DNA from: a virus
Lineage: Duplodnaviria; Caudoviricetes
Strand: one strand, 5' to 3'
Virus record (IMG/VR): IMGVR_UViG_3300033515_000006
Coordinates: 1-55,467 of that record
Length of the DNA stretch: 55,467 bases
The translations under genes and the position numbers were made by a program. How positions within the stretch are numbered: the first letter of the stretch is position 1; each line of letters begins with the position of its first letter. The notes below the pieces were generated by a model that saw only the letters and a program-made list of their open reading frames with translations, was not told where the DNA came from and searched no databases. Below, piece after piece: positions 4,279 through 41,537 of this stretch.

Positions 4279-4783
4279 AAGAACAAGTGGTAAAATAAAA
4301 CGAGATTATGGAATGGCTGATTATTATAAATACTTTAAAAAACAATATCCTGAATTGAATATTACAAATAAAAAGTTTTATAATATTATAGCTGATTTTA
4401 ATAAAAAAATCACAGAATATGTAATAGAAGATAATTTAGATTATCAATTACCACATTTAGGAGCTTCTATTGCGGTTAAAAAAACAAAACAAATACCAAA
4501 AATAGTTGATGGTAAATTGGTCAATACTGCTCCAGTAGATTGGGTTACAACAAATACTTTATGGAAAGAAGATGAAGAAGCTAAAGAAAAAAAACTTTTA
4601 GTTAGATTTTCAAATTATCATACTTCTAAATATGTTTTTGGAATATATCTTAAAAAATATATTTATTCATTTAAAAACAAAAAATATTATAGATTTAAAG
4701 CAACTAGATCTTTTGCAAGATTATTAGGTAAACGAATAAAAGATGAAAACAAAGAGCGTTATGACGCATTTTTATTATATTAA
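4265..4783 (+). CDS. IHF/HU-like protein of the crAss-like tail module
   Basis: Basic protein with IIADFNKKI...LPHLGASI...YRFKATR HU/IHF-like pattern; conserved position. Confidence 0.6.
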   Translation: MIKNKRTSGKIKRDYGMADYYKYFKKQYPELNITNKKFYNIIADFNKKITEYVIEDNLDYQLPHLGASIAVKKTKQIPKIVDGKLVNTAPVDWVTTNTLWKEDEEAKEKKLLVRFSNYHTSKYVFGIYLKKYIYSFKNKKYYRFKATRSFARLLGKRIKDENKERYDAFLLY

Positions 4784-10879: not shown

Positions 10880-13837
10880 ATGCCAGATCCAAAGAAAAAA
10901 CCAATAGTTGTAAATGATCCAAATGATCCAAGATTACATAAATATTTAGATAGTTTAAATTTATATAAAGGTTATGAATTATCTAAAATTTACAATAAAC
11001 AAGATGAAAATTCTAAATTAGTACCGAAAACTTTACCTAAAAATAAAATAAAATATAGTAAATCAGATGCTGACCCACATAAATCATATTCAGATTATTT
11101 AAAATATTCTAAAGAATTTGAAAAAAAGTTAGATGAGGAATTTAGAAAAGATCCAAAAAATGCTTTAAACAATATAAAAAAAATACCATATTTTAATACT
11201 AAAAAAGCAAAAATGACTGCTTTTAGTAAAAAAGAAGATTTGACCAAATATGATAAAAATGCTGCAAATTTAGTAAATGAATATGAAAAATTAAATTTTA
11301 AAGATCCTGTAGAAACAGGTTATTGGAAAACACCAGATTTATATGACCCAAATATACAGGAAATAGGTAGTTATTATAAAGGTGCATACAATCCAATATT
11401 TAAAAAACCAAATCAAGAAATTAAATATATTGGAAATTTTAATGATGTTTTAAAATTAAGACATTCTCCATATATTGCAGGAGTTAATAAAATTCCTAAT
11501 AACAATCAAAAACAAATAATAATACAAAAAAAAGAAACACCACAAGTAACCCCCTTACAAAAAATACAAACAAAAGGTTTAATAGAAACTAATCAAGAAA
11601 TAAATTCACCTTTAGCAACTATAAGACCACAAACTCAAATGCCAAAATATTGGAATGTGACAGATACTAATAATCAAAGATTTGGTGCAACTGAAACAAA
11701 ATATAAAATTTATCCTGAAACTTTAAATACACTAAGAGAACTTCCTAAAGAAGGTTGGGATAGAAAAATAACAGCACAATATGCAATGGGTGGAAATTTA
11801 CAACAAAATAATATGAAAAATAACAATCTTACAAGATTTAATGAAGGTGGTTCTCACGAACAAAATCCATTAGGAGGTGTACCTCAAGGTCAATCACAAA
11901 GTGGTCAAATGAATACAGTTGAAGAAGGAGAAACCAAAAAGAAAAATTATGTTTATTCTGATAGATTATCTATTGATGAAAATATGACTAAACAAATGAA
12001 TTTACCTTCATATATTAAAGGTAAAACATTTGCTGCGGCATCTAAGGCTATTGACAATAAATTTTTAGATAGAAATGATAATTATAGTAATGAAACTAAA
12101 AATACTCTCTTAGATCGTCTTAAACAAGCTCAGGAAACTATTAAACAACAAGAACAACAACGTGCTGAACAAATTGCTCAATCAATGCAATCTAATCAAC
12201 AACAAGTTCCTGATATGATGAATGGTGAAATACCTGAAGGTATGGAAGAATTTACAGAACAACCTGAACAAAATCAAATGTTTATGGGTGGTAATTTCAA
12301 TTTAGCTGAAGCAGGTAATATAACAGGTGGATTATCTGGCTTAGCAGGTAAAGCATCACCTTATTTAGGTGCAGCTTCTGGAGCAATGTCTTTAGGTAAT
12401 TTAGCTCAAGGAAATGGTGCTTCTACCAACAAAGCACAATCTGCTTTATCAGGTGTTGCTACAGGTGCTCAAGCAGGAATGGCTTTTGGTCCATGGGGAG
12501 CTGGAATTGGAGCAGCTGTTGGTTTAGGTGCAGGTTTAATTGGTGCAAATAAAGCTCAAAAACAACAAGCTATTGATTTAAGAAATAATGCAAATTCTGC
12601 TAATTTAACAGATAATTTTGCTTATGGTGGTAAAATTAAAATGGGAGATGGTGGTATTCCAGGAGTTCCAAATTCTTCTACAAGAATACAAGATCCTAAT
12701 TATTTTAAAAAAGATATTGTAGGTTCTGCTGATTATAATACTAATGTAATTCAAAATTTACATAATGCTTTAGGTATTACTCCTAATACTAAAGGATATG
12801 GAACTGCTTGGGGTCAAAAAAGTAATGAAGCTTATTTTAAAAAAGATTTATTAGATGGTAATAGTTCAGCAATAAATTGGAATAAAGAAGGAGTAAAAAG
12901 TTATGGATTTACAAAAGAAGACGTGACTGGTCCTGGATATGAAAAGATGAGAGTACAGTTAGGACTAACGCCTGAAGGTTATAAGTATTTAGGTCCTGAA
13001 ACACCAGATACTTCAATGTTAAAACCTACAGAACAACTTTTTGTAGAACCTACAGGAGTAAAACAAAGTATGGAAAATTATTATCAAAATTCACCTAATA
13101 AAATTAATTCTGAAAATACAGATAATACTGATAATGATAAACAATCATGGTTAGATAAAAATGGTGGTAAAATGTTAAAATATGCTCCTGTAGCAATGAA
13201 CGCTTTCCAATTATCTCAATTAAAAAAACCACAATATACAAGATTAGATAGATTAACTGATAGATTTAAACCTGAATATGTAGATGAACAATCATTACAA
13301 AATATAGCTAATAATGAATATAATAATTCTGTAAATGCTGTAAGTCAAATTGGTGGTTCGCAAGGAGCAGTTCGTAATTCTATAATTGGAGCAGGTTTAA
13401 ATAAAACTAAAGCTTTATCAGATGCTTACATGAATGCTTCAGCACAAAATAGACAAACAAATATAGCTGGTCAAGAATTTAATTTAGGAGTTAATAAAGC
13501 TAATCTTATTCAAGCTGACCAAGAACTTGATATTAACGATAGAAATCAAGCTGCTTATAGAAATGAAAAATCTAAATTATTAAGTTCTATTGGAACAGAT
13601 TTAGGTTCAATTGGTAAAGAAGAAGTTAATAAAAATCAAATTGCTGAAGCATTAGGATATGATGTTAATGGTGATTATGTCGTAAATAAAAAAACTGGTA
13701 AAAAAATGTTAACTAAAGATTTTGAAGAAAAAGTTAAAAATGGAACTTTAAATAAAAAATATAATTTTGGAAATGCTGATAAATTTACCAATTCTTCAAT
13801 TAATTATACACCAACTAATTTTAAAATAGGACAATAA
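10880..13837 (+). CDS. Virion cargo/ejection protein 1 with G/A-rich membrane segment
   Basis: GGSHEQNPLGGVP and VEEGETK motifs; GMAFGPWGAGIGAAVGLGAGLIGA hydrophobic segment; no Cys; follows the muzzle gene. Confidence 0.7.
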   Translation: MPDPKKKPIVVNDPNDPRLHKYLDSLNLYKGYELSKIYNKQDENSKLVPKTLPKNKIKYSKSDADPHKSYSDYLKYSKEFEKKLDEEFRKDPKNALNNIKKIPYFNTKKAKMTAFSKKEDLTKYDKNAANLVNEYEKLNFKDPVETGYWKTPDLYDPNIQEIGSYYKGAYNPIFKKPNQEIKYIGNFNDVLKLRHSPYIAGVNKIPNNNQKQIIIQKKETPQVTPLQKIQTKGLIETNQEINSPLATIRPQTQMPKYWNVTDTNNQRFGATETKYKIYPETLNTLRELPKEGWDRKITAQYAMGGNLQQNNMKNNNLTRFNEGGSHEQNPLGGVPQGQSQSGQMNTVEEGETKKKNYVYSDRLSIDENMTKQMNLPSYIKGKTFAAASKAIDNKFLDRNDNYSNETKNTLLDRLKQAQETIKQQEQQRAEQIAQSMQSNQQQVPDMMNGEIPEGMEEFTEQPEQNQMFMGGNFNLAEAGNITGGLSGLAGKASPYLGAASGAMSLGNLAQGNGASTNKAQSALSGVATGAQAGMAFGPWGAGIGAAVGLGAGLIGANKAQKQQAIDLRNNANSANLTDNFAYGGKIKMGDGGIPGVPNSSTRIQDPNYFKKDIVGSADYNTNVIQNLHNALGITPNTKGYGTAWGQKSNEAYFKKDLLDGNSSAINWNKEGVKSYGFTKEDVTGPGYEKMRVQLGLTPEGYKYLGPETPDTSMLKPTEQLFVEPTGVKQSMENYYQNSPNKINSENTDNTDNDKQSWLDKNGGKMLKYAPVAMNAFQLSQLKKPQYTRLDRLTDRFKPEYVDEQSLQNIANNEYNNSVNAVSQIGGSQGAVRNSIIGAGLNKTKALSDAYMNASAQNRQTNIAGQEFNLGVNKANLIQADQELDINDRNQAAYRNEKSKLLSSIGTDLGSIGKEEVNKNQIAEALGYDVNGDYVVNKKTGKKMLTKDFEEKVKNGTLNKKYNFGNADKFTNSSINYTPTNFKIGQ

Positions 13838-30900: not shown

Positions 30901-33469
30901 AAGACAAGATGAATTAGATAAATTAATTGAAGAAGATAAAAATCAATTAATAAAAGGAGTATCTGCGGATATCGATAAAGGTGATGCTAATATTTTTAGT
31001 ATATTAGATACTAAATCTAGATTTATGCAAATAGGTTGGAAATTAATTACTAAAATGCAATCTAAAATTAACGAATTAATTAGAAATTATGATTTTAAAC
31101 TTGATAAATTAAATACAGATTTAAAAAATGAAAAAGGTAAATACGATGTCAAAAATTTATTTGAAAAAGATAGTAATGGTCAAACTTTTATAAAAGGTGA
31201 ATACAATTTAAAATTTAGAGATAAATATATAAATGAATATTCTAAACTATTAGATGAATCTGTTCAACTTAGAAAAAAATTAACAGCAGAAGGTTTATCT
31301 ACTATTCAAATTCATTCAAACGCAGAATTAAAAGTAATATTTTCTAAACTTGCTAAATGGAGAGCTGAAAATACTAAAACTATAAAAGGTGTAATTTATC
31401 CAGCTGATAAATATAAAAATGTTTTAAATTTTTCAAAAGCAGAAAAAGCAATTTATGATGAATATTTAAAGCTTGTACACGAAGGAGTTAAACAATTTGG
31501 TAAAGATAATTCTTTATTAAGATCTAGTTTAAATGCTAATTATTATATGATACCATATCAAACAATTAGTAATTTAGAACGTTTAAAAGAAGGTAAATTA
31601 AATGTAGTAGATTTTGCAAAACAAAAATATACAGATATTGTTGATTGGAAAATAGATGAAATTGAAAATACTAAAAAAATGTTTACACCTTTAGGTAAAG
31701 AAATTCACAGAGTTCCTGTATTATATCGAAATAATATTACTAAATCTGAAGATGAAAAAGAATTTAATAAAAGATTAGCAGAACAATCTGTAGATTTATT
31801 AACATTAATGAGATTAGAATTTCATAATTTAACAAATCATTCTCAAAAAACTCAACATGAAACTGTTTTAAACGCGTTAGTAGATACTGCAAAATCTAAA
31901 AATTATACAAAAACAGATAGTAATGGTGGTTATATATCAAATGTATTTGGTAAAAATAAAAAAACAGTAACATTAGAAGGTTCTGATAGTAATACATATA
32001 AAAGATTAGAATCTATTGTAAATCAAACGTTATATAATCAATTTAATGAAGCAAGTATTAAAATTTTAGGTAAAGATATGAGTAAATTATCTAAATCTTT
32101 AATTAGTCATACTGCATTTTTAGGAATGACTGCTAATTATTTTTCTGCTCCTGTGAATATTTTAAATGCTGAATTTCAACAATTTATATTAAAAATTGGA
32201 GGTGATATTAAAAATGGAGCTTTAAGTTCTGCACATAAATTTTATTTTGCAGATATGCCTAATATTTTAAACGATGTTGGTAGACCTGTAAATCATTCTG
32301 TTACAAATCAATTAAATGAAATATTTGATATATTTGGTGGTTTAACTTCTGTTCAACAAGATTTTGTTAAAAATACAATATTAAAATCTATAATAGATCC
32401 TCAAATGTTACAAATAATGCAGTCTGGTGGTGAACATATGATTCAATCAATATTAAATATAGCTTTAATGAAATCTGTTAAAGTTATGAATTCTGAAAGT
32501 AAATATATTGATAAAACGGGTAAGATTGTAAAAGAAGAAAATGCAGCTACTTTATTTGATATGATTAATCAAGATAAAAATACTAAACAAGTTTCTTTTT
32601 CTGATAATTTTACATATACTAGTTTATCTACAAATACTAAATGGAATAATGGTGGTTTTGAAAACGTAAAACTTTATATTAAAAAGAAAGTTTCTGATAC
32701 GATGGGTCAACATGATAAAAATTATCAGTCAGAATATCAAAAACATTGGTGGGGTCAATTATTATCAATGTATCGAAAACACGTAGTGCCATTAGGTATT
32801 GCGCGATATAGAGGAGCAGGTAAAATGTTTGTTAATAAATTGGATTTATCTGAGGAAGATCTTCACTGGAATGAATTTCTTCAAATAAATGAAGAAGGTT
32901 ATTACACTACATTTGGTAGAATGTTTTTAGGAGGTTTTAATAAAGGTATCGTGAATGGTTTACAAAATTTAAAATATTCTGTATTAAAAGTAAAATGGAA
33001 TGAATTATCTAATTATGAAAAATCTAATATTAAAAAAGCAACTGCTGAATTTTCAACTTTAGCATTATTAAACTTTGTAATCATACCTTTACTCGCTGGT
33101 TTAGGTGGTGATGGAGATGATGATGATTATTTAGTTTATTTATTAATGGAAAGTAGAAGACTTGAACAAGAATTAGGTTCTTATACAGACCCTAATGATG
33201 CATATAAAATAACTAAAAGTCCAACTGCTACATTAAGTTTAATCAATAATTCAATAAGTGTTGGTAAATTTGTTGTAAGTCCAACAAGTTGGTTTTCTAC
33301 TAATGAAAAAGGAGAATTAAGATTTTTAAATGCTTTAGAAAAAGTAACAATTCCAAGTGCATTAAGACCTGATACAACAGCTAAAACAGCATTAAAACAA
33401 ATGGATCAAGGACTAAGTGTTCCTTACAATGAAACAATTTTTTACAAGTTATTTAATGAAAATAACTAA
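27956..33469 (+). CDS. Giant virion cargo protein with zincin metallopeptidase-like domain
   Basis: HEVVH (29852-29866) plus downstream AEFIAE; hydrophobic C-terminal segment. Confidence 0.7.
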   Translation: MKNCVNFNSPDVVKLAGELNVSPAVAAAKIGLWQSKNNIEDRFPTKDELFQSNEVNTTLKAVDILQSDKAKQVFEKGNKNGWDLNKILTELQIPKEQKQLILDLGVTDREQIALELASNYSYSVKIDITKENIRSGVKEIEEDNYDTLYSPSENKYYSYSEELGWMQTDENNRNQEFDINPPEDAKPYQKNTRFEDNYVELNSSHYSNLTVPGGTNYTENEISTPLITPSIKGHAQFATDNGIGWFRSDDALVNNGLTQQELDNIPQEYLEESLHNTKTRRILEVQSDLFQKGRDKEWLSREMDSLTPEEVANEPEWLRPIGTIVKSDSKKNAFLNLLIKDNNWVTFFVKSIIQDSQKKGYEKVLFPSGDTASKVEGHSTLEEFKKQKEDRIKELEKRKKEGTETVERYLLDDNNEPYSSVNVKIDEEINQLKQELERVETEGFGALKPIYNFYENTVTNILNKTYGKDNVKVITDEYGNTWNEVTLDNKRDESTIFMKQVDMSNIIDDSVETIFPDTKSETIEQSDDNQNHKLLFGDENIKTLSATEVLKNLISSDTFNNSKDEGFFLEKMMNLLNKSGAKLKLITDVNDINYQKFDSKTVMLYDAITNTIYVNDTSLNNFDKQTLASAFIHEVVHSTTLRAYFAPRTFEEREFRDFIDKSFFQYKYLSEKRDSEGNLMYGFTNQAEFIAEIYSNPAFRAEIESIDKKWFDKFIDAVRRLYEMIKNGFNTDLIKSAVLFNIVDEFATKQSVNYKGTLVKDPRFERFGKSEFAKKVEGDKIRNLDERLENLINIQKDNISQIIRRAQSNNKKHGVKNKEFINVVKKLEEELHTAAQTDKLKAINTYVDFMVYQIDKIKNLMEKSTNKTETLDIIERYKTYLGASDLLKPVTDTLVDTDIKDLSEEQQLYNKEILRKIGEVGGYYNILQAEFTAHINKELINELNDPYYSEIVIQEFRNTIGKDYPKDSELSKNEWINQEVVKRQDELDKLIEEDKNQLIKGVSADIDKGDANIFSILDTKSRFMQIGWKLITKMQSKINELIRNYDFKLDKLNTDLKNEKGKYDVKNLFEKDSNGQTFIKGEYNLKFRDKYINEYSKLLDESVQLRKKLTAEGLSTIQIHSNAELKVIFSKLAKWRAENTKTIKGVIYPADKYKNVLNFSKAEKAIYDEYLKLVHEGVKQFGKDNSLLRSSLNANYYMIPYQTISNLERLKEGKLNVVDFAKQKYTDIVDWKIDEIENTKKMFTPLGKEIHRVPVLYRNNITKSEDEKEFNKRLAEQSVDLLTLMRLEFHNLTNHSQKTQHETVLNALVDTAKSKNYTKTDSNGGYISNVFGKNKKTVTLEGSDSNTYKRLESIVNQTLYNQFNEASIKILGKDMSKLSKSLISHTAFLGMTANYFSAPVNILNAEFQQFILKIGGDIKNGALSSAHKFYFADMPNILNDVGRPVNHSVTNQLNEIFDIFGGLTSVQQDFVKNTILKSIIDPQMLQIMQSGGEHMIQSILNIALMKSVKVMNSESKYIDKTGKIVKEENAATLFDMINQDKNTKQVSFSDNFTYTSLSTNTKWNNGGFENVKLYIKKKVSDTMGQHDKNYQSEYQKHWWGQLLSMYRKHVVPLGIARYRGAGKMFVNKLDLSEEDLHWNEFLQINEEGYYTTFGRMFLGGFNKGIVNGLQNLKYSVLKVKWNELSNYEKSNIKKATAEFSTLALLNFVIIPLLAGLGGDGDDDDYLVYLLMESRRLEQELGSYTDPNDAYKITKSPTATLSLINNSISVGKFVVSPTSWFSTNEKGELRFLNALEKVTIPSALRPDTTAKTALKQMDQGLSVPYNETIFYKLFNENN

Positions 33470-37547: not shown

Positions 37548-38822
37548 TTATTTATATTTATTATATTGTTCAATAGCTTCTGATGAATTTTCACATATAA
37601 TATAATTATATTCTTTGCAATTTTGAACCATTTTATTGAACCAAACTACTTCTTGAGTACCTTCAGTCACAATTACAAAAACATGACCTAATTTGTCATT
37701 ATTTTGTCTTAAACGACCTACTTTTTGTATAAAATCTACTTCATTACTATAATAATCTTTTATAATACAAATATCTAAACCTGGTAAATTTTTACCTTGT
37801 TTTAATTTTTTAAACGAACCTATTGATTTAATTTCATTTCTATTAAGTTTATTGATAATTAAATCATTTTCTTCATCTGTATTATTGGAAGATACTACTT
37901 GATTAGGTATAATTCTTTCTAAAGATTCTAAAGAATTACCAAATATAATAGTTTTTTCATCAATTTTATTTAATAATATTTTAACAATAACATCTTTACT
38001 TTTTAAATTATATAATAATTTACTTCTTTTTGAAGCAATTTTTTTAATTTCTAAATCTTTACGTATTTCAAAATCTACAATTAATTCATTTGGTTTTTGT
38101 TCTAATATTAAAGTTTCATTAAATTTATTATTAATATATTTATAAGCATCAACTTCAGTTTGCCAAAATATAACTTTAGAATTACCTGCTTTAATACATT
38201 TCATGTTAGAATTTAAATTATTTTTAACAACATATATATTTAATTTACGAGATGTACCATCAATTTGTCCATCAGAAGTTGTATATGTAAAACAAATTGG
38301 TGCAATTTCATTAATCATGTCAATTTTATTAACCATTGTTTTACCAAAAAATCCAACTAAATCATTATCTCTTTTTAAACAATAATATTGACTTGCTGAT
38401 ATTGTTGCACTTAACCCAATTATTGCATCATAATCATTATATATATGAAATTTAACATATTCTGGACTTAATTGGTCATGTATTTCATCACAGCCTACTA
38501 AACCAAATTTAAAATTTTTCCATTTATAAACAGTTTGATAACAATAAAAATCTAAACTATAATCTTTATGTACATCAACATTAAATATTTTATTATATTT
38601 TATAATTTCAGCTTCTAAATCTTTTTGTCTTTCTGTAGTTTCCGCTAAAAATATATGTTTAATATCTTTTCTATTTTTTGGCATGGTATATAATGCTTTT
38701 AAAAATATAAAATTTTTACCACTACCAGTAATAGATTCTACAGTTCCTTTTTTTTGTGTTTTATATATCCAATTTTCAATTGCTTTATCTTGGATATTAT
38801 TTTTTAGTTGATTTAATTCCAT
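37548..38822 (-). CDS. Superfamily 2 helicase
   Basis: TGSGKN, CDEIHD, LSAT, QGKNLP and QKVGR motifs. Confidence 0.85.
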   Translation of the reverse strand: MELNQLKNNIQDKAIENWIYKTQKKGTVESITGSGKNFIFLKALYTMPKNRKDIKHIFLAETTERQKDLEAEIIKYNKIFNVDVHKDYSLDFYCYQTVYKWKNFKFGLVGCDEIHDQLSPEYVKFHIYNDYDAIIGLSATISASQYYCLKRDNDLVGFFGKTMVNKIDMINEIAPICFTYTTSDGQIDGTSRKLNIYVVKNNLNSNMKCIKAGNSKVIFWQTEVDAYKYINNKFNETLILEQKPNELIVDFEIRKDLEIKKIASKRSKLLYNLKSKDVIVKILLNKIDEKTIIFGNSLESLERIIPNQVVSSNNTDEENDLIINKLNRNEIKSIGSFKKLKQGKNLPGLDICIIKDYYSNEVDFIQKVGRLRQNNDKLGHVFVIVTEGTQEVVWFNKMVQNCKEYNYIICENSSEAIEQYNKYK

Positions 38823-39459
38823 TTATTTTCATTATTTTTGCATAACTTTTTTTGGAGTTATCATCTAATTTATATTTTTCAAAATCAATAAAATCACTAA
38901 AATTTCCATTAATTCCTTCATTTAATTCTAAAATTTTATTAATTTCTAATTTATTTAATATTTTACAACCTTGGTTAAACATTAAAATATGATTTGAATT
39001 GAAATAATTACTAATTTCTTTTGATTTAATAGATATATTACAAGAAGTTGTAAATAATAAACCTCTATCTTTTTTTGGAAAATATTTACACATTTGTATA
39101 AAATGTTTAGCGATTGATCTAAAATCATCATTGTTATTTTGATATAAACATCTAATTAACATTCCTGAATAACATAAATAAGAATGTTTTTTAATAATTT
39201 TATCAATTACAAAACTAATATATAATTCATTATTTTTAATACTTGTTGTAAAAGGTAAAACACTTATTTTTTGTATTTCTTTTAAATATAAAGTTCTATC
39301 TTCTTCTGTAAAAAAATCTAAATATTCTTTTTTTAAAATTATAGAAGCACTTTTTAATTCATCATCTATATTTCTTATTTGATAATTAAAATTTGAAAAA
39401 CAACCTTGACCATAAGTAATATTATTATTTATTTCATAATTATCTCCATCTATATACAT
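38797..39459 (-). CDS. Hypothetical protein
   Basis: 220-aa ORF; no recognised motif. Confidence 0.6.
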   Translation of the reverse strand: MYIDGDNYEINNNITYGQGCFSNFNYQIRNIDDELKSASIILKKEYLDFFTEEDRTLYLKEIQKISVLPFTTSIKNNELYISFVIDKIIKKHSYLCYSGMLIRCLYQNNNDDFRSIAKHFIQMCKYFPKKDRGLLFTTSCNISIKSKEISNYFNSNHILMFNQGCKILNKLEINKILELNEGINGNFSDFIDFEKYKLDDNSKKSYAKIMKINGIKSTKK

Positions 39460-39489: not shown

Positions 39490-39656
39490 AGTAGATGACA
39501 GGATTTAAACCTGCATTATACGTCTATAATCCACACGAGTTCCCAAAGTTACGATATACCCTCTACAGTTATTATATATCTCTCGACTTCACGTTTTAAT
39601 ACAAAGATTAAAGGTCATGTAATTGTGGTGCGTCTGTCAATTTCCGCCACATCTAC
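39490..39656 (-). ncRNA. tRNA-like RNA (class II/Leu-type frame) with an 88-nt insert in place of the anticodon loop
   Basis: Acceptor GTAGATG/CATCTAC, D arm GCG/CGC, stem CCACA/TGTGG, variable hairpin ATTATA/TATAAT, T arm GCAGG-TTTAAAT-CCTGT. Confidence 0.75.
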
Positions 39657-39674
39657 TTTATTATTTATTATTTA

Positions 39675-41537
39675 TTAAATTTCACAACCAGCACCACTAC
39701 AAGCAACTTGGTCTTTTAAATTAGTAGTATCGTTTATTTCAATTACTTTAGATAAATCAATATCTTTTAATGTTTCCATTAATTTTTCATAAGTTTCTTT
39801 ATCACAATCTTCAAACGGGGTTTGTTTATAAGTACCACCATTGTAAGGAAGTACAGATAAACCATTATAATAATCTTTATTAACCCACATCCATTCTCCG
39901 ATGATTTTCCATTCATCAGGTCTTACAGATACAGTACAAGATACATTATGTGTATTTTGACCTTTAATATGTCCAGTTTTAACCCAATCTTTAGAAATAA
40001 GTTTAACTCTTTCTAATGCATCAATTGTAGATTCGTGTCTTGTTATAGCTCCTTCTGGTGCTTTTTGTGGTACTGTAATTACAGCAGTAGTATTTGGACT
40101 AAAATATTCATCTTCAATTAATTCAGGATGATAAATAGCTAAATATTGATATAATGCTTCATTTTTATTAATACGCATTCTTCTTAAATAGTAATCATTA
40201 TGCCAAGCATGAATACCTGACGATGTACCTAAAACTAAACTTGTAGTTCCAGCAGGTTTGACAGCAGTTGTTCTTGCTGCTTGATTAATACCTAAAACTT
40301 CAGATAATATTTTATTTTGTTCTATGACAATTTTAGCAGCTTGTTCATAATCTAATTCAAGATTACTTTTAGATGCAATACCTGTCATAGAAACACCAAT
40401 TAAAGCATCTTTTTCAGTATTTTTCTTCCATACATCTCTAAGATAATGAAAATCTGTGTAAGAAGCTTGTAATGTACCTACAAAAGAAGCAGCTTGACAT
40501 CTTTTATTTAAATCTTGTTGAGATTCAATATTTGACATATTGATTTCACATAAATTACAGAATTGATAAGGTCTTAATGCAATTTCACAACATGGATTTG
40601 TTCCCCAATCTTTATCATTTGTAAGATAAATACCAGGTTCTCCACTTCCTGAAGCTTCAATTCTTTCCCAAACTTTATCAAAAGTTTTTTTATCAATTTT
40701 ATGTCTTAATAATACTACTGAGTTATTAGCTCTACCTCTTTGTGGATTAGATTCCCACCAATTACCAGCTTTACAATTTAACATAGCATCGCTATCTAAA
40801 TCAAATAAACTAATCATTGCGGCTCTTCTAATACCACCAGCTAATACAGCATCTGCAATATGACATTGAATATCATGACATTCTATATCAGTTAATTTAG
40901 AACCATCTTCTTTTTCTCTTAAAATAGCTTCAATTTTAACTAAAGCAATTCTTAAAGGTTCAGGTCCTGGTGCTTTACCACCAGCAGTTACTAATAAAGC
41001 TCCTTTTTGTCTAATATCTGATAAATCAAATTCAATATGACTTCCACCAGATATATAAGATTTAAATAAAACTTTAACGGCATCTGCCCAACCAATAATA
41101 CTATCTTGTACTACATACTTTTTTTTACGTTCAAAATTAGGTTTTCTAATTTCAGGTAATTTATCAATATGATGATTTTGAACACTATAACCTACACCTG
41201 TACCACCTAATAATAAAAACATAGTTTCACTAAAACTACGTATATCATCAATTGGTAAAAATGCACAATTATAAATTCTACTATTATTCATATCAATTGC
41301 TCTACCACCAAATTGTAAACTACGCATTGACGGTAAAATTTTCTTAGTTAAAACAAAGTTTTTATAAACATTTTCAATATCGTTTTTAATATTTGGATGT
41401 TTTTTTATATGCATTTGCATATTTCTTTCAACTAATTCTTCCCAAGTTTCTCTTCTTTCTAACTCAGGTAAATGTTTGGCATATTTTGAATATACCGTAA
41501 TGTCACTTAATATTTTTTTATCTAAACTTAAATTCAT
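39675..41537 (-). CDS. nrdJ: Class II (adenosylcobalamin-dependent) ribonucleotide reductase
   Basis: LPSMR, YNCAF, GGIRRAA, GTNPCCEI, VKPAGTTS and C-terminal ACSGAGCEI; no beta-subunit gene adjacent. Confidence 0.9.
   Translation of the reverse strand: MNLSLDKKILSDITVYSKYAKHLPELERRETWEELVERNMQMHIKKHPNIKNDIENVYKNFVLTKKILPSMRSLQFGGRAIDMNNSRIYNCAFLPIDDIRSFSETMFLLLGGTGVGYSVQNHHIDKLPEIRKPNFERKKKYVVQDSIIGWADAVKVLFKSYISGGSHIEFDLSDIRQKGALLVTAGGKAPGPEPLRIALVKIEAILREKEDGSKLTDIECHDIQCHIADAVLAGGIRRAAMISLFDLDSDAMLNCKAGNWWESNPQRGRANNSVVLLRHKIDKKTFDKVWERIEASGSGEPGIYLTNDKDWGTNPCCEIALRPYQFCNLCEINMSNIESQQDLNKRCQAASFVGTLQASYTDFHYLRDVWKKNTEKDALIGVSMTGIASKSNLELDYEQAAKIVIEQNKILSEVLGINQAARTTAVKPAGTTSLVLGTSSGIHAWHNDYYLRRMRINKNEALYQYLAIYHPELIEDEYFSPNTTAVITVPQKAPEGAITRHESTIDALERVKLISKDWVKTGHIKGQNTHNVSCTVSVRPDEWKIIGEWMWVNKDYYNGLSVLPYNGGTYKQTPFEDCDKETYEKLMETLKDIDLSKVIEINDTTNLKDQVACSGAGCEI

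What the first reader, a model, noticed from the sequence alone, without database searches (positions are those of the whole stretch)
39490..39656. tRNA scaffold carrying an 88-nt structured cargo in its anticodon loop
Seen: an otherwise complete class II cloverleaf whose 7-nt loop is replaced by 88 nt containing two hairpins (TTTAAT/ATTAAA; CGAG-GATATA/TATATC-CTCG). The D loop has GA instead of GG and the T loop TTT instead of TTC, a compensatory A19-U56 pair. There is no encoded CCA, and the insert is too short for a group I/II intron or tmRNA. Inference: a natural tRNA-scaffolded RNA (decoy, aptamer or protein-spliced intron) or an RNase P/Z processing signal just after nrdJ.
Basis: partly seen in the sequence, partly recalled or inferred. 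Interest (0 to 1): 0.8.

Follow-up and report, generated by a model that had tools for sequence, protein, structure and literature searches.

The report
Phage tRNA look-alike carrying conserved cargo
An uncultured phage carries a gene that folds like a leucine-type tRNA but holds a conserved, folded 88-base RNA where the anticodon loop should be, so it is most likely a non-decoding tRNA-shaped RNA of a long-known but still unexplained phage kind.

Summary
On the minus strand at 39490-39656, in the 215-base gap after a B12-type ribonucleotide reductase gene, lies a class II cloverleaf with 88 nt between the two strands of its anticodon stem. Four full-length homologues turned up in other viral and metagenome contigs (L209, L210, L211, L212). 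Across the five copies the 88-nt cargo is 78-92% identical to the window's, while the acceptor stem matches at only 3-4 of 14 positions yet always pairs. Fourteen of 49 pairs show changes on both sides (shuffles 5.7±1.6). The window's A19:U56 stands where the other four have G19:C56. No reading gives a conserved 7-nt anticodon loop, no copy lacks the insert, and no intron or ribozyme family matches. It is therefore best read as a non-decoding tRNA-shaped RNA built like phage T5 RNA1, with a new conserved cargo fold that sits on four different tRNA-like frames. Its function, expression and processing remain untested. This scan had already reported the same kind of RNA, though not this cargo, on other DNA. 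Related phages also hold a large family of tRNA-like genes with one shared frame and hypervariable interiors.

The parts
39490..39656 (-). whole tRNA-shaped RNA gene (167 nt, from G1 to discriminator U73)
39650..39656 (-). acceptor stem, 5' strand GUAGAUG
   Evidence: 6 of 7 acceptor pairs change on both sides among 5 copies
39491..39497 (-). acceptor stem, 3' strand CAUCUAC; discriminator U at 39490; no CCA follows
39630..39647 (-). D arm (GCG...CGC stem, loop AAAUUGACA with G18 A19), leucine-tRNA-like sequence
   Evidence: stem invariant in 5 copies. It resembles GGCGGAAUUGGUAGACGC of related phage tRNA-like genes and T5 RNA1.
39624..39628 (-). anticodon stem, 5' strand CCACA
   Evidence: pairs in all 5 copies, one C-G to U.G change
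39531..39535 (-). anticodon stem, 3' strand UGUGG
39536..39623 (-). 88-nt cargo in place of the 7-nt anticodon loop
   Evidence: 69-81 of 88 positions identical to the four homologues. Of 25 variable positions 13 lie in helices, and 12 of those 13 keep a standard pair in every copy.
39594..39613 (-). cargo hairpin 1 (CUUUAAU / AUUAAAR, 6-nt variable loop)
   Evidence: only one-sided changes; base pair C:G in 4 copies, C.A in the window
39586..39591 (-). cargo helix C, 5' strand UGAAGU (pairs with 39544-39549 ACUUUG)
   Evidence: 2 of 6 pairs change on both sides in L211
39544..39549 (-). cargo helix C, 3' strand ACUUUG
39582..39585 (-). cargo helix B, 5' strand CGAG (pairs with 39536-39539 CUCG); crosses helix C
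   Evidence: 1 of 4 pairs changes on both sides. States with B or with C are within about 3 kcal/mol.
39553..39580 (-). cargo hairpin 2 (GAUAUA / UAUAUC) with 16-nt loop ending in the conserved AACYGUAGAGGG
   Evidence: 1 pair with a double change, 2 one-sided. Run contigs differ only in its loop.
39515..39530 (-). long variable arm AUUAUA-GACG-UAUAAU (class II)
   Evidence: 1 pair with a double change in 2 copies
39498..39514 (-). T arm GCAGG-UUUAAAU-CCUGU (U56 pairs with A19)
   Evidence: 3 of 5 stem pairs change on both sides. The other four copies have UUCGAnU with G19.
39675..41537 (-). upstream gene: B12-type (class II) ribonucleotide reductase; its stop codon lies 18 nt before the RNA
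38797..39459 (-). downstream orphan ORF (220 aa), starting 30 nt after the RNA; not a conserved partner
   Evidence: no family, no relatives. The neighbours differ in L209, L210, L211 and L212.

Best explanation
This is a gene for a non-decoding, tRNA-shaped RNA. The acceptor stem, T arm and D arm form a leucine-tRNA-derived frame. The 88-nt domain at the end of the anticodon stem is the conserved, functional cargo. Shown here: the cloverleaf and four cargo helices are kept by compensating changes in five copies. The cargo, anticodon stem and variable arm travel together as one conserved block on four different acceptor/T-arm frames. No reading gives a usable anticodon loop. Inferred, not shown: the RNA is transcribed with the reductase gene. 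The host's RNase P cuts its 5' end, and RNase Z or exonucleases with the CCA-adding enzyme finish its 3' end, which would also separate the two flanking messages. The tRNA fold would make the roughly 167-nt product stable. The cargo, a three-way junction whose helices B and C form either a pseudoknot or two alternative states, would then bind a protein or RNA target that is still unknown.
For: Homologues are L209 753-940, L210 4512-4714, L211 1655-1819 and L212 4904-5091, aligned as A3. Covariation: 49 pairs, 99.2% of cells paired, 14 pairs with double changes against 5.7±1.6 in shuffles (0 of 500 reach it) and 0-3 when partners are slid. By helix: acceptor 6/7, T stem 3/5, variable arm 1/6, helix C 2/6, helix B 1/4, hairpin 2 1/6. 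The tertiary pair 19:56 is A:U in the window and G:C in the other four. Identity to the window by segment: acceptor 3-4/14, cargo 69-81/88, anticodon stem plus variable arm 23-25/26. Of the 13 variable cargo positions that lie in helices, 12 keep a standard pair in every copy. Two run contigs match 39508-39635, and every difference listed for them falls in the two hairpin loops or extends hairpin 1. No decoding loop is conserved. ARAGORN's reading gives GGA in three copies and GAA in two. The canonical 37/38 reading puts A at position 33 in L211. T5 RNA1 has the same architecture. The element sits on the coding strand, 18 nt after a stop codon, with no excess of promoter or terminator matches.
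Against: There is no expression or processing evidence. The one clear metatranscriptome laid (X18) had no contig on the element, and X1 and X2 are probably DNA. Folding energy is no better than shuffles. Neither Rfam tRNA nor default ARAGORN recognises it. Only five sequences were available, and two share one frame. The acceptor 'covariation' may come from recombination with other tRNA-like genes rather than stepwise compensation. Helices B and C cannot both form in a nested fold, and all three double changes in them come from one sequence (L211). The element is dispensable: 0 of 5 near-complete close relatives and 0 of 80 reductase-linked loci have it. It has no conserved neighbour and no identified target.
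Confidence: 0.62

Rival explanations
1. It is an intron-containing tRNA gene. The 77-88 nt would be removed by an unknown bacterial or phage splicing activity to give a working class II tRNA, like the 'enigmatic introns' reported in Lak megaphage tRNAs.
For: ARAGORN with introns at relaxed thresholds calls tRNA-Ser(GGA) with a 77-nt intron. Phage tRNAs with unexplained introns are in print (PMC6784885, passages read). The insert lies exactly in the anticodon loop.
Against: By inspection there is no bulge-helix-bulge motif. No group I intron or ribozyme family matches, even at E<=10. The 'anticodon' would be GGA or GAA in near-identical genes, or UAC with A33 in L211. All 3 of 3 IMG/VR hits to the anticodon-stem/variable-arm pattern carry the cargo, so no insert-less allele was seen. 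The window holds no RtcB, RNA ligase or splicing endonuclease, though the contig is about 55% complete. The 'intron' is far better conserved than the acceptor stem.
Confidence: 0.1
2. The function lies in the tRNA-like frame, not the cargo. The RNA would act as a decoy or sponge for enzymes that bind tRNA bodies, such as tRNA-cleaving defence nucleases, synthetases or modification enzymes. The insert would merely keep it off the ribosome.
For: The elbow is kept by a compensated 19:56 pair. Related phages hold many tRNA-like genes on one frame with unrelated interiors. Defence nucleases that cut the anticodon arms of host and phage tRNAs exist (PMC13056530, passages read).
Against: The frame is the least conserved part and the cargo the most conserved. 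The discriminator differs between copies, U in four and A in one. A mere blocker would not need 78-92% sequence identity or covarying helices.
Confidence: 0.12
3. It is only an mRNA punctuation signal (a t-element). RNase P and RNase Z would cut there to separate the reductase message from the next gene, and the released RNA would have no role of its own.
For: It is embedded between two same-strand genes, with gaps of 18 and 30 nt and no promoter or terminator of its own.
Against: The same cargo-bearing RNA occurs in four other gene contexts, two of them in arrays of tRNA-like genes. A cutting signal does not need a conserved 88-nt fold.
Confidence: 0.08
4. It is a decaying tRNA pseudogene disrupted by an insertion, or a chance cloverleaf.
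For: Default tRNA finders and Rfam miss it. The T loop is UUUAAAU and the D loop has GA. Close relatives lack it.
Against: Five copies show 99.2% of cells paired and 14 covarying pairs. The 19:56 change is compensated. Shuffled windows give about 0.05 relaxed ARAGORN hits per 55 kb.
Confidence: 0.03

Closest known systems
Phage T5 RNA1 (rna1, NC_005859 30501-30644) and RNA2 (32959-33083), annotated 'tRNA-like stable RNA with unknown functions'
   Same: RNA1 is phage-encoded and has a leucine-type D arm (CCGGAAUUGGUAGACGG). It also has an acceptor stem, a long variable arm, a T arm, and an oversized folded domain where the anticodon loop should be. RNA2 has the T arm GCAGGUUCGAAUCCUGU, the same as in many related phage genes here. 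Function is unknown in both.
   Different: The profile of the cargo block (anticodon stem, cargo and variable arm) finds nothing in the T5 region, so there is no sequence relation in the cargo. T5 RNA1 lies in a tRNA cluster, whereas this one stands alone after a reductase gene. T5's RNAs are annotated as stable RNAs, while this one has no expression data.
Phage T4 rnaC and rnaD ('small, stable RNA; species 1 / species 2 RNA', NC_000866 70908-71171)
   Same: These are stable phage RNAs of unknown function beside tRNA genes. rnaC ends in a canonical T arm (CCGGGUUCGAAUCCCGG) preceded by a long hairpin.
   Different: No clear D arm or anticodon stem appears in the single-sequence fold. There is no sequence likeness to this element.
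'Enigmatic introns' in Lak megaphage tRNAs (Devoto et al. 2019, PMC6784885; passages read)
   Same: Phage tRNA genes that bacterial tRNA finders miss because of an insert in the anticodon loop. The inserts are highly conserved between genomes.
   Different: Lak has alleles with and without the insert and assignable anticodons. Here no insert-less allele was found and no consistent anticodon exists. Lak sequences were not compared, and that paper's supplementary tables could not be read.
Engineered 'tRNA scaffold' for recombinant RNA (Ponchon and Dardel; PMC3753655, listing and abstract only; the design itself is recalled)
   Same: An RNA of interest replaces the anticodon loop of a tRNA, so that the cell folds, processes and protects it as a tRNA. 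This is the same topology as here.
   Different: That scaffold is man-made. Whether the natural element is processed and stabilised in the same way is untested.
Archaeal/eukaryal intron-containing pre-tRNAs (PMC4090602, abstract only) and bacterial group I introns in tRNA anticodon loops (recalled)
   Same: Extra sequence lies inside the anticodon loop of a tRNA gene.
   Different: There is no bulge-helix-bulge motif, no group I match and no endonuclease or ligase in the window. At 88 nt it is far below the size of group I introns as I recall it. The insert is more conserved than the exons.

Membership tests
Decoding tRNA (Rfam RF00005) | Cloverleaf of acceptor, D, anticodon and T stems kept by covariation | tested here: met
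   All four stems and the variable arm pair in 5 of 5 copies. Acceptor 6/7 and T stem 3/5 pairs show double changes.
Decoding tRNA (Rfam RF00005) | Conserved core nucleotides U8, A14, G18, U54, U55, A58 and a Watson-Crick 19:56 pair | tested here: met
   All are present in the sequence. The 19:56 pair is A:U here and G:C in the four homologues.
Decoding tRNA (Rfam RF00005) | Seven-nucleotide anticodon loop with U33 and a purine at 37 | tested here: not met
   88 nt lie between the stem strands. Neither of the two removals compared across copies (ARAGORN's and the canonical 37/38) gives a loop conserved in all five.
Decoding tRNA (Rfam RF00005) | Score at or above the family's gathering threshold | tested here: not met
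   No RF00005 hit at gathering score or at E<=10. The L210 copy is also not hit.
Decoding tRNA (Rfam RF00005) | Aminoacylation and 3' CCA | not testable with these tools
   No CCA is encoded in any of the 5 copies. Whether CCA is added afterwards is unknown.
Phage tRNA-like stable RNAs (T5 RNA1 type) | Phage-encoded, with tRNA-like acceptor, D and T arms and a class II variable arm | tested here: met
   Viral contig; arms as above; T5 RNA1 parsed for comparison.
Phage tRNA-like stable RNAs (T5 RNA1 type) | Oversized folded domain instead of the anticodon loop | tested here: met
   88-nt cargo with four helices. T5 RNA1 has a comparable domain.
Phage tRNA-like stable RNAs (T5 RNA1 type) | Accumulates as a stable RNA during infection | not testable with these tools
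   No RNA run held the element.
Phage tRNA-like stable RNAs (T5 RNA1 type) | Sequence homology to T5 RNA1 beyond the tRNA frame | tested here: not met
   The nhmmer profile of the cargo block finds only the five copies among the window and 212 loci, which include the T5 region L208.
Protein-spliced tRNA intron (bulge-helix-bulge type) | Bulge-helix-bulge motif at the exon-intron junctions | tested here: not met
   By inspection of the sequence, neither the canonical nor ARAGORN's junction gives a 3-nt bulge, 4-bp helix, 3-nt bulge.
Protein-spliced tRNA intron (bulge-helix-bulge type) | Splicing endonuclease and ligase available | tested here: inconclusive
   PF01974, PF01139 and PF09414 are absent from the window. 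The contig is about 55% complete and the host is unknown.
Group I intron in a tRNA gene | Match to the group I intron model; catalytic core of about 200 nt or more | tested here: not met
   No Rfam match at E<=10. The insert is 88 nt.
tmRNA | tRNA-like ends around a tag reading frame and pseudoknots | tested here: not met
   ARAGORN -m finds nothing and Rfam has no match. A D arm and an anticodon stem are present, unlike in tmRNA as I recall it.

The most novel reading that the evidence does not exclude
Phages of this lineage use the upper half of a tRNA (acceptor/T-arm helix plus D-arm elbow) as an interchangeable production and stabilising frame for a library of unrelated structured RNAs. 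That would make it a natural counterpart of the engineered tRNA scaffold. On this reading the 88-nt cargo is one such trans-acting effector. It would be a bistable or pseudoknotted fold that recombination at the conserved D- and T-arm sequences moves between frames. The more than 130 same-frame genes with hypervariable interiors in IMG/VR would be other effectors of the same system, for instance RNA aptamers or sponges aimed at host or rival-phage factors.
Probability: 0.35. Interest if true: 0.85.

Novelty: new member of a known kind. Interest (0 to 1): 0.6.

Why it matters
tRNA-shaped stable RNAs have stood annotated in the T4 and T5 genome records, still marked as small stable RNAs or 'unknown functions'. 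This case adds a comparative handle that single model phages could not give. The part that replaces the anticodon loop is the conserved, covarying unit, while the acceptor stem around it is exchanged. That points to the cargo as the effector and the tRNA body as its carrier. It turns 'what do these RNAs do?' into a testable question: find what binds this defined 88-nt fold. If the wider family of same-frame genes with different interiors works the same way, phages would hold a large unexplored repertoire of small structured RNAs that standard tRNA and ncRNA annotation misses.

Tried and rejected
- **Close relatives.** BLAST of the element against 80 reductase-linked loci, a DNA search of 5 near-complete relatives and a distant search of the phage collection found nothing.
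- **Exact IMG/VR patterns.** Patterns from the T arm plus acceptor, the D arm and a 30-mer of the cargo gave 0 hits.
- **Downstream ORF.** The 220-aa ORF has no Pfam family, only one weak PHROG match to a family of unknown function (E 0.0024), and no relatives.
- **Repeat or mobile insert.** No second copy of the insert exists in the window or in 208 loci.
- **Prokaryote genomes.** Two GTDB-wide pattern scans gave 0 hits.
- **Known ribozyme, riboswitch, tmRNA or snoRNA.** Only two chance-level Rfam matches, both at E 0.44.
- **Antisense target of the conserved hairpin-2 loop.** The window has 5 sites at <=2 mismatches against 2.0±1.3 expected, and the only perfect one is the element itself.
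- **Expression.** The 24 runs held only small shares of the stretch. Of the four laid, the one clear RNA run had no contig on the element, so nothing can be said about transcription or splicing.
- **Alternative outer stem UACAYGA/UCGUGUG (RNAalifold).** It loses one pair in L211, where helix B compensates instead. Energies do not separate the states.
- **Covariance model.** This plan was dropped after the nhmmer profile found no further copies.
- **Literature.** Searches found no description of this cargo or of the shared-frame family. The IMG/VR structured-RNA catalogue (PMC10690425, passages read) mentions only a few tRNA-like candidates in its text. Its supplementary tables, which might list this motif, were closed. 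PMC150520 is not held.

Full report
**What is there.** The window is a 55-kb linear IMG/VR virus record, estimated 55% complete. Genes around the finding run on the minus strand. The element fills most of the 215-base gap between a 620-aa ribonucleotide reductase (39675-41537) and a 220-aa orphan ORF (38797-39459). The reductase has a Pfam barrel domain and a class II insertion domain, matches PHROG 367, and has relatives annotated as adenosylcobalamin-dependent reductases.

Read on the minus strand from 39656 to 39490, the element has these parts:
- a 7-bp acceptor stem, then U8 G9;
- a 3-bp D stem, with a D-arm sequence (GGCGGAAAUUGACAGACGC) close to the leucine-tRNA type;
- a perfect 5-bp anticodon stem (CCACA/UGUGG) enclosing 88 nt;
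- a 6-bp variable arm with a GACG loop;
- a T arm, GCAGG-UUUAAAU-CCUGU;
- discriminator U and no CCA.

**Is it more than chance?**
- Standard detectors miss it. ARAGORN at default settings and Rfam give nothing, even at E<=10.
- Its folding energy is ordinary (z = -0.44; 64 of 200 shuffles fold as well).
- ARAGORN with introns and relaxed thresholds finds it as the only extra hit in the real window. In 40 dinucleotide shuffles of the window it gave 2 hits in total, both in one shuffle.
- The strong evidence is comparative (below).

**Relatives.**
- The nearest phages by reductase identity (81-83% amino-acid identity; 80 loci kept of 599 confirmed stretches) do not carry the element within 3 kb.
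- Five near-complete relatives lack it entirely.
- The stretch after the reductase differs in each of 11 close relatives.
- Laying contigs of four public runs showed one short contig each in X1 and X2 matching 39508-39635 with 9-10 differences. This showed that relatives of the cargo exist.
- Pattern scans built from the unchanged parts then found four full-length homologues: L209 (metagenome contig), L210, and L211 and L212.
- Two scans of one genome per prokaryote species found none.
- A profile search of the window and all 212 loci held found only these five copies.

**What the five copies show (alignment A3).**
- Four different acceptor stems occur: GUAGAUG (window), GGUUGAG (L209 and L212), AGCAAGG (L210) and AGUCAGG (L211). 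Only 3-4 of 14 acceptor positions match the window, yet every pair is kept.
- The cargo matches the window at 69-81 of 88 positions. The anticodon stem plus variable arm match at 23-25 of 26.
- On a structure of 49 pairs, 99.2% of cells are standard pairs. Fourteen pairs show changes on both sides, against 5.7±1.6 in shuffles (0 of 500 reach it) and 0-3 when partners are slid.
- By helix, the double changes are: acceptor 6/7, T stem 3/5, variable arm 1/6, cargo helix C (UGAAGU/ACUUUG) 2/6, helix B (CGAG/CUCG) 1/4, hairpin 2 1/6. Hairpin 1 shows only one-sided changes.
- Of 25 variable cargo positions, 13 lie in helices, and 12 of those keep a standard pair in every copy.
- The four homologues have G19 with C56.
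- L209, L212 and L210 carry an extra hairpin inside the D loop that the window and L211 lack.

Caveats:
- There are only five sequences, and two share one frame.
- The double changes in helices B and C all come from L211.
- The acceptor changes may come from recombination with other tRNA-like genes rather than stepwise compensation.

**Cargo fold.**
- Helices B and C cross each other. They form either an H-type pseudoknot, with hairpin 2 in the connecting loop, or two alternative states.
- Nearest-neighbour energies of the competing nested states differ by 3.3 kcal/mol or less in each copy.
- RNAalifold's alternative outer stem loses a pair in L211, where helix B compensates instead.
- The hairpin-2 loop ends in the conserved AACYGUAGAGGG, and the 3' strand GUAA..UUGGRAAC is nearly invariant.
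- I found no target for the loop in the window.

**Not a decoder, and probably not an intron.**
- No removal of the insert gives a loop conserved across copies. ARAGORN's reading gives anticodon GGA in three copies and GAA in two. The canonical 37/38 reading gives UAC, but with A instead of U at position 33 in L211.
- There is no bulge-helix-bulge motif (inspection).
- No group I intron or self-cleaving ribozyme matches.
- All 3 of 3 IMG/VR hits to the anticodon-stem/variable-arm pattern carry the cargo.
- The window holds no RtcB, RNA ligase or splicing endonuclease, although the contig is incomplete.
- The supposed intron is much better conserved than the supposed exons.

**Context.**
- The flanks of L209 and L212 are homologous to window 51.5-55.0 kb. 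There the cargo gene sits where the window has two other tRNA-like genes (55132-55220 and 55296-55383). The gene has therefore moved between sites.
- Downstream genes differ in every locus.
- In L210 and L211 the element lies next to further oversized tRNA-like genes.
- Related phages share a frame, AGUCAGGUGGCGGAAUUGGUAGACGC...CAGGUUCGAAUCCUGUCCUGACUA.
- Of 131 copies with both ends found, 87 are longer than 92 nt, and default ARAGORN of them tRNAs.
- One copy of the 88-nt cargo (L211) sits on this very frame.

**Comparison with what is known.**
- The T5 record annotates RNA1 and RNA2 as 'tRNA-like stable RNA with unknown functions'.
- RNA1 has a leucine-type D arm, an oversized domain in place of the anticodon loop, a long variable arm and a T arm. 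This is the same architecture, with no cargo homology.
- T4 rnaC and rnaD are 'small, stable RNA' beside its tRNAs.
- Lak megaphages have unexplained tRNA introns.
- Earlier notes of this scan had filed similar RNAs from other phages under the T5 RNA1 kind. None holds this cargo.
- I found no paper describing the cargo or the shared-frame family. The supplementary tables of the IMG/VR structured-RNA catalogue could not be read.

**Verdict.** This is a real, conserved gene for a non-decoding tRNA-shaped RNA. It is a new member of the old, unexplained T5 RNA1 kind. The new point is that the cargo is the conserved unit and the tRNA frame is exchangeable. Transcription, processing by RNase P and RNase Z, CCA addition, stability and the cargo's target are all inferred and untested.

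Noticed in passing
L088-L207 (IMG/VR), also L081, L082, L084: There is a large family of phage tRNA-like genes on one near-identical frame (5' AGTCAGGTGGCGGAATTGGTAGACGC, 3' CAGGTTCGAATCCTGTCCTGACTA) with unrelated interiors. Of 131 copies with both ends found, 87 exceed 92 nt, and default ARAGORN calls only 28 a tRNA. Some of the longest may be two adjacent genes.
   Followed up: partly
window 55132-55220 (-) and 55296-55383 (-): Two class II-sized tRNA genes sit on the AGTCAGG/AGTCAAG frame. One has a 6-nt 'anticodon loop' (ARAGORN tRNA-???, anticodon 'tg') and the other is called Leu(AAG). They occupy the slot where L209 and L212 carry the 88-nt-cargo gene.
   Followed up: partly
window 55227-55242 (-); also L143 and L096: A conserved hairpin, GCTTG-GAAAGA-CAAGC, lies just upstream of a tRNA-like gene and follows TTGACA. 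L096 has CCTCG...CGAGG at the same place, so the stem covaries. It could be a promoter-region or processing element shared by these genes.
   Followed up: no
L209 768-790, L212 (same), L210 about 4660-4700; also L109, L150, L183, L136, L199: Extra hairpins are inserted into the D loop, between GGCGGAA and UGGUAGAC, in several tRNA-like genes. Three of the five cargo copies have them. The L209 and L210 inserts look homologous, with changed stems.
   Followed up: partly
L211 1840-1960 (-) and L210 4332-4434 (-): Further oversized tRNA-like genes lie directly next to the cargo gene, each with its own acceptor stem and its own unrelated interior. In these phages the genes form small arrays.
   Followed up: no
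L082 1501-1570 (relative G005): A 70-nt gene on the same frame is read by ARAGORN as a tRNA with anticodon UUA, which would read the UAA stop codon. The window's own ORFs are open under the standard code.
   Followed up: no
L001-L011, just downstream of the reductase gene: The stretch after the reductase stop codon holds different genes across the 11 closest relatives, with a few shared. It is a variable slot into which the window's RNA gene and the orphan ORF appear to have been inserted.
   Followed up: partly
window 12330-12402 (+): A weak sub-threshold tRNA match (22.1 bits, cut-off 29).
   Followed up: no
L209 967-1551, 3125-3643, 4017-4412, 4462-5022: By eye from the translations, this contig carries three ORFs with gamma-glutamylcyclotransferase-like motifs and a GIY-YIG-type endonuclease downstream of the cargo gene. 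None was searched against a family library.
   Followed up: no
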